The notes below the pieces were generated by a model, which did no database searches, had not been told where the DNA came from, and was given only the letters and a program-made list of their open reading frames with translations. A DNA stretch of 36,921 bases, from IMG/VR virus record IMGVR_UViG_2531839667_000014, positions 1-36,921 of that record. One strand, given 5' to 3'. Each line of letters opens with the position of its first letter. The first letter of the stretch is position 1. Below are positions 22,503 to 27,007 of the stretch, piece by piece. Source of the DNA: a virus (taxonomy: Duplodnaviria; Heunggongvirae; Uroviricota; Caudoviricetes). The translations under genes were made by a program, and so were the position numbers.

Positions 22503-22717
22503 TATTCACCTCTCGCAGCCTTTCTTCTGTCTTCTCTGATTTTGAAGTACAGATTTGTCAGATAAGTCAGGAAGCCCAGAACCAGACTCCCCAGTACACC
22601 AATCGCAGCCCACTGTGACGGACTGACCTGATCAAGCCACTGTAAAAACCAGTAGCCAGCACTGCCTGCGGAGGTGCCGTAGGCAATGCCCGTTGAAATT
22701 TTGTCCATGGATTTCAT
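22502..22717 (-). CDS. S: pinholin S21 with dual-start motif
   Basis: 71 aa [14 protein letters not shown]... with two TM segments; Met1-Lys-Ser-Met4 dual start as in phage 21 S (S21-71 antiholin / S21-68 holin). Confidence 0.9.
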
Positions 22718-22773: not shown

Positions 22774-22802
22774 TTTGAAAAGAAAAGCCCGCAAAAGCGG
22801 GC
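22774..22802 (-). terminator. terminator-like hairpin upstream of the lysis cassette
   Basis: Minus-strand GCCCGC-tttt-GCGGGC followed by TTTTCTTTTC. Confidence 0.45.
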
Positions 22803-23009: not shown

Positions 23010-23084
<75 letters not shown>

Positions 23085-23087
23085 ATA

Positions 23088-23163
<76 letters not shown>

Positions 23164-23351
23164 ATTGGTTCTTCGGGTGTGAATGAGATGCCCGGATACA
23201 TAATTTACCCTTCCCTCGGAACCGCAGAGATAATACAAATAAATAACCAGAATTCAATATTTGCTTATTCGTCTGTCGAAAAATCCAGCAAGATGAAAGA
23301 ACCGTATTCGCAACCACCAGCGTGTTTAATGTACCGTACCGCTTTTCAGGC

Positions 23352-23377
23352 ATAAAAAACCCGCTCGGAGGCGGGCT
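23352..23377 (-). terminator. rho-independent terminator downstream of the late promoter (tR'-like)
   Basis: Minus-strand AGCCCGCC-tccga-GCGGGTT followed by TTTTTAT. Confidence 0.65.
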
Positions 23378-23423
23378 GTAAAATTCTTCTAACGTCAGGC
23401 ATAAAACGCCCATCGTTATGGAA

Positions 23424-23451
23424 AATTTACCACAAATTCGGGAAAAATCAA
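23424..23451 (-). promoter_or_regulatory. late promoter PR'-like (-35 TTGATT, -10 TAAATT) with Q-utilisation region
   Basis: Minus strand TTGATT-N16-TAAATT then ...AACGATGGG..., resembling the lambda PR' segment GGGTAAATTTGACTCAACGATGGG as I recall it; directly downstream of the Q-like gene. Confidence 0.6.
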
Positions 23452-23456
23452 CAACA

Positions 23457-24278
23457 CTATCGCGTTACCCTCTTTAACTGCCGCTCCGCCCATGTCTCTT
23501 CAATGTCAAACCGAACCACCAACGTATCGTAAAAGCGTTTCACTGATTTTTTCCACGTATCAAGCGTGATAGCACTCGTCACTTTACATATGGCATTAAA
23601 TGCCTCCGTTGATGGCAGTCTTTCATAGCCCCGACCACCACAACGCTGGCAGTTCCTGATTACAGGCATACCCCGTTTTTCCGACTCTTCACGATGAATG
23701 GCAACACCACGCCCACGGCAGTCTTTACAGGCAGTGGAAATCTCCCCCTTCCCTTTACATTCAGGACAGGAAACTTTCACCACCTCCCGGATTTTTTTCC
23801 ATTCTTCCCAGTAAGACGGATACACACCCTTCGTACACTTTGCCCATACTGGCGGCTTGCCATCCGGATACTGGACCTTGTTTGTAAAAACTTCGCTTTC
23901 AATAAATTTTTCCCCATGGCAACAAGGGCACTGCTTTTTACTCGCTGCGCTGCGGGCATAATCCTCAAAAGCATACGAAGCCATAATGCGCATCACTGCC
24001 GGTTTTATTTCTGCCGGAAGTTTTCTTAACGCCGCCACGCGATCGCACTGACTTAATGCATAATCTGCCAGTAATTCTGTTGCCCGCGCCCTGTCATTCA
24101 TACTAATGCCCATTTTCCCCAGGAACGCAGAAAATCCCATCTCAGCACGGTTTTGTGTCATACCCTGCGCAGCCATCACATCAGTGATACTCAGCGTATC
24201 TTTTGACGTCGAGACGGATGCATCAGTCAGGCCAGGCGATTTTGGGGAGTAGTATTTCGGTAAATCTTCCAGCTTCAT
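23457..24278 (-). CDS. Q: late antiterminator Q-like protein (zinc-binding)
   Basis: 273 aa with several CxxC pairs; located between rusA and the PR'-like promoter; ATGA overlap with rusA. Confidence 0.65.
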   Translation of the reverse strand: MKLEDLPKYYSPKSPGLTDASVSTSKDTLSITDVMAAQGMTQNRAEMGFSAFLGKMGISMNDRARATELLADYALSQCDRVAALRKLPAEIKPAVMRIMASYAFEDYARSAASKKQCPCCHGEKFIESEVFTNKVQYPDGKPPVWAKCTKGVYPSYWEEWKKIREVVKVSCPECKGKGEISTACKDCRGRGVAIHREESEKRGMPVIRNCQRCGGRGYERLPSTEAFNAICKVTSAITLDTWKKSVKRFYDTLVVRFDIEETWAERQLKRVTR

Positions 24279-24655: not shown

Positions 24656-25711
24656 TTATGCTTTCCACTTCAGGACACCCGAATTTCTCGCGTGCATTAA
24701 AAAACGAATCAGCAACAACAGCTGGCTGCCGTGTTTTTCTTCAAAATCTTTTACCCCGGCGTGCAGTTCGTTATGACATTTACGGCACAGCGGAATAACA
24801 AACAAATCATCAGCCTTTGTTCCCATCCCTCCCAGTCCATGACCAATGATGTGATGCGGATCATCTGCCTGATTACCGCACGTCATGCATTTCTGCGTTT
24901 TTACCCAGCGCGTGTATACAGGCATCTCTTCCCGTTGTGGTTTCTGGCGCTGGAGATACTGAGCCGGTGACTCCGGATCAACGGCAATGCTGACCACCGT
25001 CTTTTCCTGTGGCGGATTTTGCTGGTGGGCGTGAGGCAGCGGCGCAAGATTTTTTGTGCGCTGCTTCAGTATGCTGGTGGCGGTCTGCTCTCCCGGTACG
25101 ATGTCGCTTTCACGGTACACTGAGCGGATTTTTTCCGCACGCCCCCCCAGCGAACGACGTAATACCGCTTCCGGTAGCGCGTCCGCCACCTGATTGCGGA
25201 CCGCCCACCAGGATAATTCAGCCAGAGATAACTCCCGTTCCTGTGTACCGCTTATTGCGTGGCGGATGACGCCAATCATCCAGGCTGCCAGATTTTGATG
25301 AGCAAGTTGCCCGAGTGATTCGGATGTCTGGTCACGCAGCAGGTTGTCGCAGTGCCAGCACAACACTATTGCGCCGGTACCATAACGGTGAATGACGGTT
25401 TCGCTGTGATGATAATCGCCGTGTGGCCACTGGCAGGATTTAATATGGCGCAACAGCCAGTCAGACAATGCACCAGCACCACCAGCAGCACGAATCACCC
25501 GTGCGTTACTGAAAAACGGCAGCAATGTTTTGTCTTCCACCAGCGGCTGGCGAACGGCAGGAACGACCCCGGACGGCAGATTACGCATGCTTTTCGGTTC
25601 CGGCTCCACCAGCACTCGAGGATTGTGAAATACCTGCATGGATTCACGGCCCGGCTTAACGATCACCAGCCCGAGTTCCGGTACCAGAACAGGTCGAAGT
25701 AATACCCGCAC
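24656..25711 (-). CDS. DUF968-family prophage protein (YdfU-like) with C-terminal HNH-like motif
   Basis: 351 aa; C-terminal ...CMTCGNQADDPHHIIGHGLGGMGTKADDLFVIPLCRKCHNELH... has HNH-type Cys/His spacing; an internal start (MQVFHNPR) is possible. Confidence 0.65.
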   Translation of the reverse strand: MRVLLRPVLVPELGLVIVKPGRESMQVFHNPRVLVEPEPKSMRNLPSGVVPAVRQPLVEDKTLLPFFSNARVIRAAGGAGALSDWLLRHIKSCQWPHGDYHHSETVIHRYGTGAIVLCWHCDNLLRDQTSESLGQLAHQNLAAWMIGVIRHAISGTQERELSLAELSWWAVRNQVADALPEAVLRRSLGGRAEKIRSVYRESDIVPGEQTATSILKQRTKNLAPLPHAHQQNPPQEKTVVSIAVDPESPAQYLQRQKPQREEMPVYTRWVKTQKCMTCGNQADDPHHIIGHGLGGMGTKADDLFVIPLCRKCHNELHAGVKDFEEKHGSQLLLLIRFLMHARNSGVLKWKA

Positions 25712-26562: not shown

Positions 26563-26718
26563 TTACTCCTCAGGTTCGTAAGCTGTGAAGACAGCGACCT
26601 CCGTCTGTCCGGTTCGGATTCGTACCTCGCAGAGGTCTTTCCTCGTTACCAGTGCCGTCACAATGACGGTTAAACAGATGACGATCAGGGCGATTAGCAT
26701 CGCCTTTTGCTGCTTCAT
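26563..26718 (-). CDS. hok: Hok-family type I toxin (HokD/RelF-like)
   Basis: 51 aa MKQQKAMLIALIVICLTVIVTALVTRKDLCEVRIRTGQTEVAVFTAYEPEE; single TM helix; AAGGAG RBS; the track ORF is extended in frame by 19 codons. Confidence 0.9.
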   Translation of the reverse strand: MKQQKAMLIALIVICLTVIVTALVTRKDLCEVRIRTGQTEVAVFTAYEPEE

Positions 26719-27007
26719 AGCCTGCTTCTCCTTGCCTTTCGGCACGTAAGAGGCTAACCTACGTGTGCAAGTCATAGATATGGCCTCAGATTAATGTTAA
26801 GCGTCTTGCAGGACGCGTAATGTTAACTGGGGCTTTCTCTGCCTGCCTTACAGTGGCATGCCCGAGGCAGACAGCCTCAAGCACCCGCAGCAATTCTACT
26901 TAACTATCTTTCTCCCGCAAATCGTTTTTATCCCCAGCGGCAAATCGAATACACAACCAGTGCTACCGCCATTGCAATTCCTACTGTTGTGAATGCCTCA
27001 GGCCAGG

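What the first reader, a model, noticed from the sequence alone, without database searches (positions are those of the whole stretch)
23352..23451. Lambda-like late promoter and terminator directly after the Q-like gene
The minus-strand sequence TTGATT-N16-TAAATT followed by AACGATGGG closely resembles the lambda PR' and qut region as I remember it, and a strong intrinsic terminator follows about 50 nt downstream. That implies Q-dependent antitermination controlling the tRNAs, lysis and morphogenesis genes, and supports calling the 273-aa zinc-binding protein a Q-type antiterminator.
Basis: partly seen in the sequence, partly recalled or inferred. Interest (0 to 1): 0.45.

Follow-up and report, generated by a model that had tools for sequence, protein, structure and literature searches.

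The report
Lambda-type late promoter, pause site, terminator
This is an ordinary lambda-style "late gene switch" of an E. coli prophage, where a promoter, a polymerase pause signal and a terminator sit right after the antiterminator gene Q; it is useful mainly because comparing about 150 relatives shows that the short leader RNA it makes has a conserved folded 5' end.

Summary
On the minus strand, TTGATT (23451-23446), 16 nt, TAAATT (23429-23424), 6 nt, then AACGATGGG (23417-23409) are followed by an intrinsic terminator (stem 23377-23358, U-run to 23354).

Lambda PR' has the same -10 hexamer, the same 6-nt gap and the identical AACGATGGG. In lambda this is the sigma70-dependent pause element at +1 to +6 plus its GGG.

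The 273-aa ORF directly upstream is a full-length homologue of lambda Q (Pfam PF03589; PDB 7UBM E=2e-40). It carries a 66-69-aa insert with two extra CxxC motifs, like phi80 Q.

The cassette is conserved in close relatives and recurs across Enterobacterales. In 83 of 88 Q-lambda-family loci a terminator follows, with the stem ending at a median of +62. Lambda's 194-nt leader is the outlier.

The interpretation (Q-dependent antitermination of the lysis and morphogenesis genes) is supported by homology and conservation, not by experiment. The tRNAs may also have their own promoter.

One extra result: the RNA copy of the pause element (+1 to +4/5) pairs with a downstream segment to form a 5'-terminal hairpin. 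Compensatory changes maintain it in many lineages. No Rfam family covers these leaders.

Verdict: a new member of a known kind, with low interest for the finding itself.

The parts
23457..24278 (-). Q gene: a 273-aa Q-lambda-family antiterminator of the long form, with an extra zinc-motif insert at aa 114-182.
   Evidence: Pfam PF03589 at 1.9e-50. phmmer against PDB 7ubm_Q at 2.1e-40, with aa 1-113 matching lambda Q 1-113 and aa 183-273 matching lambda Q 117-207. Alignment A1 shows C184/C187/C210/C213 invariant, and the insert carries CxxC at 117-120 and 170-173.
23446..23451 (-). -35 hexamer TTGATT of the late promoter (PR'-like).
   Evidence: Invariant in 28 unique close relatives. Aligns with lambda TTGACT.
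23430..23445 (-). 16-nt spacer TTTCCCGAATTTGTGG, the candidate Q-binding element (QBE).
   Evidence: The GAAT and GTG cores are invariant in close relatives. The motif tttcc[cg]gaa.ctgtg is kept in loci whose Q is only 52-61% identical, while other Q clades have other spacers. The phi80 record annotates a Q site at the same place. Its function is inferred.
23424..23429 (-). -10 hexamer TAAATT, identical to lambda PR'.
23409..23417 (-). Sigma70-dependent pause element: -10-like AACGAT (predicted +1 to +6; +1 = 23417) plus GGG.
   Evidence: Identical to lambda and at the same 6-nt distance from the -10 hexamer. Lambda AACGAT = +1 to +6 with a GGG discriminator-like element, pause at +16 (PMC4005639). 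The P22 record places the RNA 5' end on the first A. Invariant in close relatives.
23391..23417 (-). Predicted 5'-terminal leader hairpin (+1 to +27): AACG pairs with CGTT as the outer helix, and GGGCGU pairs with AUGCCU as the inner helix.
   Evidence: MFE -9.3 kcal/mol, z = -2.6. Covariation across the family.
23352..23377 (-). Intrinsic terminator (tR'-like): stem at +41 to +60 and U-run to +64. The predicted terminated RNA is about 62-65 nt.
   Evidence: Relatives change the stem and loop but keep the hairpin.
23230..23257 (-). Promoter-like site TTGAAT-16-TATTAT about 60 nt upstream of tRNA-Thr. It could be a Q-independent tRNA promoter.
   Evidence: The 933W record annotates an analogous 'pT'. 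Not tested further.
23010..23163 (-). tRNA-Thr (UGU) at 23088-23163 and tRNA-Gly (UCC) at 23010-23084, lying between the two terminators.
   Evidence: ARAGORN. Rfam tRNA.
22777..22802 (-). Second intrinsic terminator (GCCCGCTTTTGCGGGC followed by a T-run) between the tRNAs and the holin gene.
   Evidence: phi80 and SfV also carry two terminators before the holin gene.
21541..22717 (-). Lysis cassette, the first late genes: holin (22502-22717), lysozyme (22005-22502), Rz (21541-22020) and the embedded Rz1-like ORF (21603-21788).
   Evidence: Pfam PF04971, PF00959 and PF03245. ORF list.

Best explanation
This is the late-gene regulatory cassette of a lambdoid E. coli prophage, of the Q-lambda type.

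Proposed sequence of events (inferred by homology unless marked otherwise):
1. Sigma70 RNA polymerase starts at about 23417, from TTGATT-N16-TAAATT.
2. Sigma region 2 re-binds the -10-like AACGAT(GGG) in the non-template strand of the first transcribed bases, and the polymerase pauses at about +16/+17.
3. Without Q, the polymerase terminates at the hairpin and U-run at +41 to +64. This releases an RNA of about 64 nt.
4. When the 273-aa Q protein has accumulated, it binds the spacer between -35 and -10 (candidate site TTTCCCGAA..GTG) and engages the paused complex.
5. Q then travels with the polymerase and makes it read through this terminator and the second one at 22802-22787. The holin, lysozyme, Rz/Rz1, HNH, terminase and head/tail genes are then expressed.

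What is shown here: the sequence elements, their identity and spacing relative to lambda, the homology of Q, and the conservation of the cassette. What is inferred: the start site, the pause, Q binding and read-through.

In addition, the leader RNA folds so that the RNA copy of the pause element (+1 to +4/5) pairs with +24 to +27, forming a hairpin flush with the 5' end. Covariation across the family indicates selection on this RNA structure. The most likely role is protection of the 5' end of both the short RNA and the long late mRNA against 5'-end-dependent decay; this role is an inference.
For: Sequence elements:
- Exact elements and coordinates.
- Lambda PR' reads TTGACT-N17-TAAATT-N6-AACGATGGG.
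- Lambda AACGAT is the -10-like pause element at +1 to +6, with GGG (PMC4005639).
- The cassette is defined as Q gene, then PR', then SDPE, then terminator, and PF03589 is the Q-lambda family (PMC9388147).

Q protein:
- PF03589 at 1.9e-50.
- Full-length match to the lambda Q structure at 2e-40.
- Zn ligands invariant.

Conservation:
- In 28 unique close relatives the -35, spacer cores, -10 and +1 to +12 are invariant. The discriminator, the linker and the terminator loop vary.
- Eighty diverse Enterobacterales loci show the same architecture directly after Q.
- 83 of 88 have a terminator, with the stem ending at a median of +62.
- The phi80 and P22 GenBank records annotate the same features.
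- Late genes lie downstream.

Leader hairpin:
- 61 of 75 unique leaders have a perfect complement of +1 to +4 within +10 to +36. Mean match with the leader's own arm is 3.80 of 4, against 2.94 with arms swapped between sequence classes and 2.95 for shuffles (sd 0.06).
- On an alignment not fitted to the structure, 81% of cells are paired, against 14-45% when the partner is slid. Pair 3 is CG 34 / UA 7 / UG 2 and pair 4 is GC 28 / AU 10 / GU 3.
- The result was replicated on a separate IMG/VR sample: 87% against 32% in shuffles.
Against: - There are no experimental data for this element.
- The promoter matches only 8 of 12 consensus positions, has a 16-nt spacer, and was not picked up by the generic scan.
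- The spacer, the presumed Q-binding site, shares little with lambda's, so Q binding is inferred only from within-clade conservation.
- The Q protein carries a 66-69-aa insert next to the DNA/sigma-contacting arm. The effect of this insert on loading geometry is unknown.
- RNAalifold did not call the 5' helix on the MAFFT alignment, because it is short (4-7 bp) with variable loops.
- The related sequences are not independent, so the shuffle statistics overstate significance.
- The 5' arm's sequence is constrained by its DNA role. Only the 3' arm is free to track it.
Confidence: 0.88

Rival explanations
1. The short terminated transcript is itself the functional product. In this reading it is a prophage-encoded regulatory small RNA made constitutively in lysogens, like StxS or IsrK, and antitermination is only one of two uses of the locus. 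This does not exclude the main explanation.
For: - The short PR'-tR' RNA of Stx phages binds Hfq and regulates in trans. The same paper notes short late-leader RNAs in lambda, 21, phi80, 82 and P22 (PMC7547250).
- IsrK of Gifsy-1 is encoded directly downstream of a Q-like gene and acts both as an sRNA and as an mRNA (PMC4825925).
- The predicted RNA of about 64 nt has a conserved 5' hairpin, an A/G-rich linker (AGAAGAAUUUUAC) and a terminator with a U-tail.
- Leader length is tightly kept: 76 of 83 terminator stems end between +50 and +69.
- Covariation in the 5' helix shows selection at the RNA level.
Against: - No target, no Hfq binding and no expression data exist for this RNA.
- It matches no Rfam family, IsrK included.
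- The linker and loop sequences diverge between Q clades, so no trans-acting seed common to the whole family exists.
- A 5' hairpin is equally explained by RNA stability alone.
Confidence: 0.25
2. The promoter-like hexamers are fortuitous, and the hairpin is simply the terminator that ends the upstream (nin/Q) transcript. In this reading there is no dedicated late promoter or pause site here.
For: The promoter matches only 8 of 12 consensus positions and is missed by the generic scan. AACGATGGG alone is expected 0.33 times per window by chance.
Against: - The composite pattern is found in 0 of 100 shuffles.
- The -10 hexamer, the gap and the 9-mer are identical to lambda.
- Exactly these elements are invariant in 28 unique relatives, while the flanking bases vary.
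- The same layout follows Q in about 80 divergent loci.
Confidence: 0.03
3. The region encodes a protein or leader peptide. The candidates are the 95-aa ORF at 23126-23413, or a trp-like attenuator leader.
For: An ATG lies at 23413 within AACGATGGG and opens a 95-aa ORF. There is a sub-threshold Rfam Trp_leader hit at 23351-23441 (25.8 bits against a gathering score of 41; E=0.014).
Against: - The ORF runs through the terminator and into tRNA-Thr, and has no Pfam match.
- Relatives diverge completely just after the terminator, so the ORF is not conserved.
- The Rfam hit is below threshold and is explained by a hairpin plus U-run. The ORF's translation contains only one Trp, at residue 52, about 90 nt beyond the terminator's U-run, so no Trp codons lie in the leader upstream of the terminator.
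Confidence: 0.01

Closest known systems
Bacteriophage lambda Q / PR' / qut (QBE + sigma-dependent pause element) / tR' (6S RNA)
   Same: - The gene order is the same: Q, then promoter, then pause element, then terminator, then lysis genes.
- The -10 hexamer TAAATT is identical, the 6-nt gap is identical, and the AACGATGGG pause element is identical.
- Q is homologous over its full length, with conserved Zn ligands, an arm-tip-like SEKRG against lambda's TELWG, and a conserved N-terminal 'torus' segment.
   Different: - Q is about 31% identical by tblastn and about 40% in the alignment. It carries a 66-69-aa insert with two extra CxxC motifs.
- The -35 is TTGATT rather than TTGACT, and the spacer is 16 rather than 17 nt with a different sequence, so Q-site specificity is presumably different.
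- The terminator stem ends at +60, whereas lambda's is at about +194. Lambda is the outlier of the family.
- tRNA genes and a second terminator lie before the holin gene.
Phage phi80 gp17 (Q) with pR', and phage P22 gp23 with P late / qut / t late
   Same: - phi80 Q is a long-form Q like this one (40% identity), and its record annotates a -35, a Q site in the spacer, a -10 and a terminator about 50 nt downstream, plus a second terminator.
- P22 has a short leader: the terminator feature annotated in its record spans about +31 to +59, and the stem found here spans +28 to +57. Its RNA start is annotated on the first A of AACGAT.
   Different: - phi80 uses AACGCT seven nt after TAGATT and a different spacer (TCGCGGAAAAACTGGA).
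- P22 Q is the short 207-aa form.
- Neither is close in sequence to the element here.
Same module in phage Evi, the vB_EcoS-640R1 group, Stx2a phage Stx2_EH1910, and E. coli prophages ('quuQ'-type Q)
   Same: - Q is 90-96% identical, and the promoter, pause element and terminator are 81-92% identical.
- The match to E. coli NZ_CP090611 is 100%.
- In Stx2_EH1910 this module lies upstream of tRNAs and stx2A.
   Different: What follows the terminator differs from phage to phage, because the mosaic junction lies just after the U-run. None of those records annotates the promoter, pause element or terminator.
StxS (Stx phage PR' leader sRNA) and IsrK (Gifsy-1)
   Same: These are short RNAs made from an antitermination-controlled phage promoter directly downstream of a Q-type gene and ended at the first terminator.
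   Different: - StxS belongs to phages with the 144-aa Q clade and is a 74-nt RNA processed from a longer leader.
- There is no sequence or Rfam similarity to the leader here.
- No function is shown for the leader here.
Q21 (PF06530) and Q82 (PF06323) antiterminator cassettes
   Same: The regulatory logic is the same: a QBE, a sigma-dependent pause and a terminator (PMC9388147).
   Different: These are unrelated protein folds and families. The protein here scores only for PF03589 among the antiterminator families.

Membership tests
Q-lambda-type late regulatory cassette (Q - PR' - QBE - SDPE - tR') | A Q-lambda-family (PF03589) antiterminator gene lies immediately upstream. | tested here: met
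   PF03589 at 1.9e-50. 7UBM lambda Q at 2e-40 over the full length. The stop codon is 5 nt before the -35 hexamer.
Q-lambda-type late regulatory cassette (Q - PR' - QBE - SDPE - tR') | A sigma70 promoter lies directly downstream of Q. | tested here: met
   TTGATT-N16-TAAATT (8 of 12 consensus positions; -10 identical to lambda). Invariant in 28 unique relatives. Promoter activity itself was not tested.
Q-lambda-type late regulatory cassette (Q - PR' - QBE - SDPE - tR') | A sigma-dependent pause element: a -10-like hexamer with A at position 2 and T at position 6, located at +1 to +6 and followed by GGG. | tested here: met
   AACGATGGG is identical to lambda and at the same distance from the -10 hexamer. 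The pause itself is not testable here.
Q-lambda-type late regulatory cassette (Q - PR' - QBE - SDPE - tR') | A Q-binding element lies between the -35 and -10 hexamers. | tested here: inconclusive
   The spacer differs from lambda's. It is conserved within the clade whose Q is at least 52% identical, and it differs between Q clades, which fits co-evolving specificity. Binding was not tested. The key paper on the lambda and phi80 Q DNA-binding regions is not held in the library.
Q-lambda-type late regulatory cassette (Q - PR' - QBE - SDPE - tR') | An intrinsic terminator lies between the promoter and the late genes. | tested here: met
   Stem at 23377-23358 plus a U-run. A second terminator lies at 22802-22787. 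Lysis and terminase genes follow.
Q-lambda-type late regulatory cassette (Q - PR' - QBE - SDPE - tR') | Q-dependent read-through of the terminator. | not testable with these tools
   This needs in vitro transcription or genetics.
Q-lambda protein family (structure 7UBM/4MO1) | A Zn ribbon 'arm' with two CxxC pairs, a helical body, and an N-terminal segment that forms the RNA-exit 'nozzle'. | tested here: met
   C184/C187/C210/C213 align to lambda C118/C121/C144/C147 and are invariant in 13 sequences. Residues 1-113 align to lambda 1-113, including SPKSP and TDVMAAxGM.
Known Rfam RNA families (IsrK, Trp_leader and others) for the leader RNA | A score at or above the family's gathering threshold. 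| tested here: not met
   There was only a sub-threshold Trp_leader hit (25.8 bits against 41). No family hit any PR' leader in the window or in 18 related loci.

The most novel reading that the evidence does not exclude
Q-lambda-type late leaders may encode a conserved, so far uncatalogued, structured RNA of about 60-65 nt. Its 5'-terminal hairpin is built from the RNA copy of the sigma-dependent pause element, so the same bases would serve as a DNA signal for sigma70 and as one arm of an RNA helix. The downstream arm co-evolves to keep the pairing. The observed arm pairs are AACG/CGTT, AACA/TGTT, AACAAT/ATTGTT, AACGG/CCGTT, AATGA/TCATT, GATGA/TCATC, TAGTG/CACTA and ATAAT/ATTAT. The element would stabilise the late mRNA and/or make the terminated leader a prophage sRNA comparable to StxS or IsrK.
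Probability: 0.4. Interest if true: 0.5.

Novelty: new member of a known kind. Interest (0 to 1): 0.22.

Why it matters
The finding itself matters only for annotation. It marks where late transcription of this prophage starts and where the lysogen's constitutive short transcript ends, and it assigns the 273-aa protein as the late-gene switch.

The same Q/PR' module sits upstream of stx2 in at least one Stx2a phage. Knowing its promoter, pause element and terminator is therefore relevant to toxin expression in strains with this Q type.

The wider comparison adds two points of modest general interest:
- The textbook lambda leader (194-nt 6S RNA) is atypical. The family norm is a leader of about 62 nt.
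- The leader has a covarying 5'-terminal hairpin that overlaps the pause element. This is directly testable by mutation and could help explain why such leader RNAs accumulate, a question raised again by the StxS and IsrK studies.

Tried and rejected
- **Trp-leader or attenuator reading.** The Rfam hit is sub-threshold, so this was rejected.
- **The 95-aa ORF from the ATG inside AACGATGGG.** It crosses the terminator and a tRNA, has no Pfam match and is not conserved, so this was rejected.
- **RNAalifold on 49 leaders.** It predicted no consensus pairs. I tested the helix explicitly instead with the count of structure pairs on the same unfitted alignment, and with my own swap and shuffle controls.
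- **Guo & Roberts 2004 (lambda and phi80 Q DNA-binding regions).** The paper is not held, so the lambda and phi80 Q-site sequences could not be compared base by base.
- **Structure prediction of Q from alignment A1.**
- **HK97 as an outgroup.** It turned out to have a lambda/P22-type Q and leader.
- **933W as an outgroup.** It gave only one anecdotal non-lambda-type leader.
- **Fels-1 clade loci.** Their promoter geometry differs and the automatic +1 anchoring was unreliable. I excluded them from the replication statistics, and I withdraw the AATCA/TGATT pair seen in Fels-1 as evidence.
- **The 12-nt direct repeat TTTTATGCCTGA (+12 to +23, and again just after the terminator).** It is present here but not kept in most relatives, so it is probably coincidental.

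Full report
**1. The observation**

Read on the minus strand, the window shows the following series:
- the Q-like ORF stop (TAG, 23459-23457)
- gtgttg
- TTGATT (23451-23446)
- tttcccgaatttgtgg (16 nt)
- TAAATT (23429-23424)
- ttccat
- AACGATGGG (23417-23409)
- cgttttatgcctgacgttagaagaattttac
- AGCCCGC-ctccga-GCGGGTT followed by TTTTAT

The composite pattern TTGATT-N15-18-TAAATT-N6-AACGATGGG occurs once and in none of 100 dinucleotide shuffles. The 9-mer alone would not be significant, since 28 of 100 shuffles contain it.

The terminator scan lists the hairpin at 23377-23358 with 7 pairs, 5 of them G-C, followed by a T-run. It is part of the minimum-free-energy fold.

The hexamers match only 8 of 12 consensus positions, so the generic promoter scan did not list them. 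The case for a promoter rests on comparison with relatives.

**2. Comparison with the real lambda sequence**

Lambda (NC_001416) reads TTGACT-tattgaataaaattggg-TAAATT-tgactc-AACGATGGG. The -10 hexamer, the 6-nt gap and the 9-mer are identical to the window. The -35 differs at one base, and the spacer is one base longer with a different sequence.

Strobel & Roberts state that lambda's AACGAT occupies +1 to +6. [quoted passage not shown]

The P22 record puts the 5' end of the late RNA on the first A of AACGAT, and annotates 'qut' and 't late' right after it. The phi80 record annotates a -35, a Q site in the spacer, a -10 and a terminator about 50 nt downstream.

A MAFFT alignment of the window with lambda, P22, HK225, SfV, phi80 and FSL SP-016 puts the -35, the -10 and AACGATGGG in the same columns.

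**3. The protein**

The 273-aa ORF (23457-24278, minus strand) scores 1.9e-50 for Pfam PF03589. Yin et al. give this as the Q-lambda family, distinct from the Q21 (PF06530) and Q82 (PF06323) families (PMC9388147).

Against PDB sequences it matches lambda Q (7UBM) at 2e-40. Residues 1-113 align with lambda 1-113, and residues 183-273 align with lambda 117-207.

The four Zn-ribbon cysteines are invariant in a 13-sequence alignment. The N-terminal segment that forms the RNA-exit nozzle in lambda is well conserved.

Between body and arm there is a 66-69-aa insert with two further CxxC motifs (C117/C120 and C170/C173). Inserts of 31-66 aa with the same two motifs occur in phi80, SfV, HK225, ES2, SE1, Fels-1 and others. 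This 'long form' is therefore common, and lambda and P22 are the short form.

**4. Origin and surroundings**

The stretch from Q to the tRNAs is 100% identical to an E. coli chromosome from pig (NZ_CP090611), and 173 complete genomes hold at least 80% of it.

Upstream of Q lie RusA and a DUF968/HNH protein. Downstream lie tRNA-Thr, tRNA-Gly, a second terminator (22802-22787), a P21-type holin, lysozyme, Rz/Rz1, an HNH endonuclease and terminase. This is a complete lambdoid late region.

**5. Conservation**

Among 71 close relatives (Q 92-100% identical; 28 unique sequences), the following are invariant:
- the -35 and its flanks
- GAAT and GTG in the spacer
- the -10
- +1 to +12

The six bases between the -10 and +1, the linker, and the terminator loop vary. 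Terminator stems change while keeping pairing, for example GCCCGCC/GGCGGGT, CCCGTC/GGCGGG and CCCGCC/GTGCGGG. Similarity ends just after the U-run, which is therefore a mosaic junction.

A scan of one genome per species returned 80 loci with Q 35-93% identical, from Escherichia to Photorhabdus. Nearly all have the same layout directly after the Q stop: a promoter, then 5-7 nt, then a -10-like hexamer with A at position 2 and T at position 6 (usually followed by GG), then a terminator.

Each Q clade has its own spacer motif:
- tttcc[cg]gaa.ctgtg for Q at least 52% identical to this one
- acgtggcggaa.ttggc for a second clade
- ttcgcggaaaaactgga for the phi80 type
- ttttcaaaaaatatgga for the SfV type

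This is what one expects if the spacer is the Q-binding element. It remains an inference.

In 83 of 88 leaders an intrinsic terminator follows. The stem ends at a median of +62, and 76 of the 83 end between +50 and +69. Lambda and two lambda-like loci, with long leaders, are the exceptions.

**6. An extra feature: a 5'-terminal hairpin**

In the window, +1 to +27 folds as AACG-AU-GGGCGU-UUU-AUGCCU-GA-CGUU (-9.3 kcal/mol; z = -2.6).

Across the family, the first four or five transcribed bases are complementary to a segment ending between +13 and +31 (most often +23 to +28). When the pause element differs, the partner differs with it:
- AACGA/TCGTT (lambda, P22, HK225)
- AACA/TGTT (9 of 9 AACA leaders, against 7 of 49 AACG leaders)
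- AACAAT/ATTGTT
- AACGG/CCGTT
- AATGA/TCATT
- GATGA/TCATC
- TAGTG/CACTA
- U-G intermediates such as AATG/CGTT

The statistics are as follows:
- 61 of 75 unique leaders have a perfect complement of +1 to +4 within +10 to +36. The mean match is 3.80 of 4, against 2.94 when arms are swapped between classes and 2.95 in shuffles (sd 0.06, maximum 3.15).
- On a MAFFT alignment not fitted to any structure, the 5-pair helix is 81% paired, against 14-45% when the partner is slid. Nineteen cells have changes on both sides, a count reached by 0 of 500 shuffles. Pair 3 is CG 34 / UA 7 / UG 2, and pair 4 is GC 28 / AU 10 / GU 3.
- In a separate IMG/VR sample, fetched with three other Q proteins, 87% of 23 non-redundant leaders have a Watson-Crick helix of at least 4 bp starting at +1 to +3, against 32% in shuffles. 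The genome set gives 94% of 50, against 27%.
- New pair types appeared in that sample: ATAAT/ATTAT, TAATG/CATTA and TCAT/ATGA.

Four limits apply. The helix is short, RNAalifold did not call it, and the sequences are related by descent. The start site outside lambda and P22 is inferred from spacing.

The arm spacing varies by more than 15 nt. This argues for an RNA helix rather than a protein-binding DNA palindrome.

No Rfam family covers these leaders. I found no description of the helix in the held literature. Older papers on 6S RNA are not held, so prior description cannot be excluded.

**7. Mechanism**

The best-supported reading is the textbook one, as set out in PMC9388147:
1. Transcription from PR' is constitutive.
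2. The polymerase pauses, dependent on sigma, at the AACGAT(GGG) element.
3. Without Q, it terminates at +41 to +64.
4. With Q bound to the spacer and loaded onto the paused complex, it reads through this terminator and the next into the lysis and morphogenesis genes.

The sequence anatomy, homology and conservation are shown here. The start, the pause, Q binding and read-through are inferred.

For the hairpin, the most economical role is protection of the 5' end, since a helix flush with +1 blocks 5'-end-dependent decay. That principle is established knowledge recalled from memory, not tested here. A role of the terminated RNA as a prophage sRNA is possible by analogy with StxS and IsrK, but it is unsupported for this sequence.

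**8.

The tRNAs lie between the two terminators. A promoter-like TTGAAT-16-TATTAT (23257-23230) lies about 60 nt upstream of tRNA-Thr. The 933W record annotates a comparable tRNA promoter. The tRNAs may therefore be expressed without Q.

**9. Verdict**

The finding is real and correctly interpreted. It is a further member of a well-known kind of element, so its interest is low. The family-wide leader hairpin is the only part that may be new.

Noticed in passing
window, whole (e.g. 23314-23321 on the minus strand): There are 17 Chi sites (GCTGGTGG) in 36.9 kb, against 1.5 expected from shuffles. Fourteen of them are on the minus strand, the strand of the Q, lysis and terminase genes. One lies about 35 nt after the late terminator and is conserved at that spot in SfV, Stx2 phages and many IMG/VR relatives.
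   Followed up: partly
window 26563-26886 (minus strand): A hok/sok-type toxin-antitoxin locus. The Rfam sok hit scores 100 bits (gathering score 59) at 26713-26886, and it overlaps a 70-aa ORF whose C-terminal 50 aa look like Hok.
   Followed up: no
window 23733-23939 (aa 114-182 of the Q ORF): The Q protein has a 66-69-aa insert with two extra CxxC motifs, a weak DnaJ_CXXCXGXG match at 1.1e-07. The insert lies between the body and the Zn-ribbon arm of lambda Q. Inserts of 31-66 aa occur in most family members, and lambda and P22 are the short form. How the insert affects Q-site geometry is unknown. The promoter spacer is 16 nt in this clade and 17 nt in the others.
   Followed up: partly
L003 (Stx2a phage Stx2_EH1910), 1743-5217: The same Q/promoter/pause/terminator module (81% identical over the regulatory region) lies upstream of a methylase, three tRNAs and stx2A. 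This Q type therefore controls Shiga toxin 2 in some STEC phages.
   Followed up: no
L002 (phage Evi), 310-1359; window 24656-25711: The DUF968/HNH-nuclease-like protein two genes upstream of Q is annotated 'Phage antitermination protein Q' in the Evi record. Pfam gives DUF968 and HNHc_6 only, so this is probably a mis-annotation.
   Followed up: no
window 22777-22802 and 23230-23257 (minus strand): A second intrinsic terminator lies between tRNA-Gly and the holin gene. A promoter-like TTGAAT-16-TATTAT lies upstream of tRNA-Thr. The tRNAs thus sit in their own small unit between two terminators.
   Followed up: no
window 23395-23406 and 23345-23356 (minus strand): The 12-mer TTTTATGCCTGA occurs twice: inside the leader hairpin (+12 to +23) and again starting in the terminator's U-run. 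Most relatives do not keep the second copy, so it is probably chance.
   Followed up: partly
L001 (lambda), L152, L164 compared with all other leaders: Lambda's long leader (terminator at about +194, the 6S RNA) is atypical for its own Q family. 76 of 83 relatives end the terminator stem between +50 and +69.
   Followed up: yes
L175 (933W), 1201-1217: The late leader of 933W (157-aa Q, a different Q type) also starts with a possible 5' helix, aGUGGuuacauugCCAC, whose loop holds the annotated qut/-10-like TACATT. This is a single example and was not analysed further.
   Followed up: no
L177-L256 (Fels-1-type Q loci): The Fels-1 clade has a different promoter geometry: TTGACT-N18-TATGCT, with the -10-like AATCAT only 3 nt downstream. 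The start site and any 5' helix could not be assigned reliably.
   Followed up: partly
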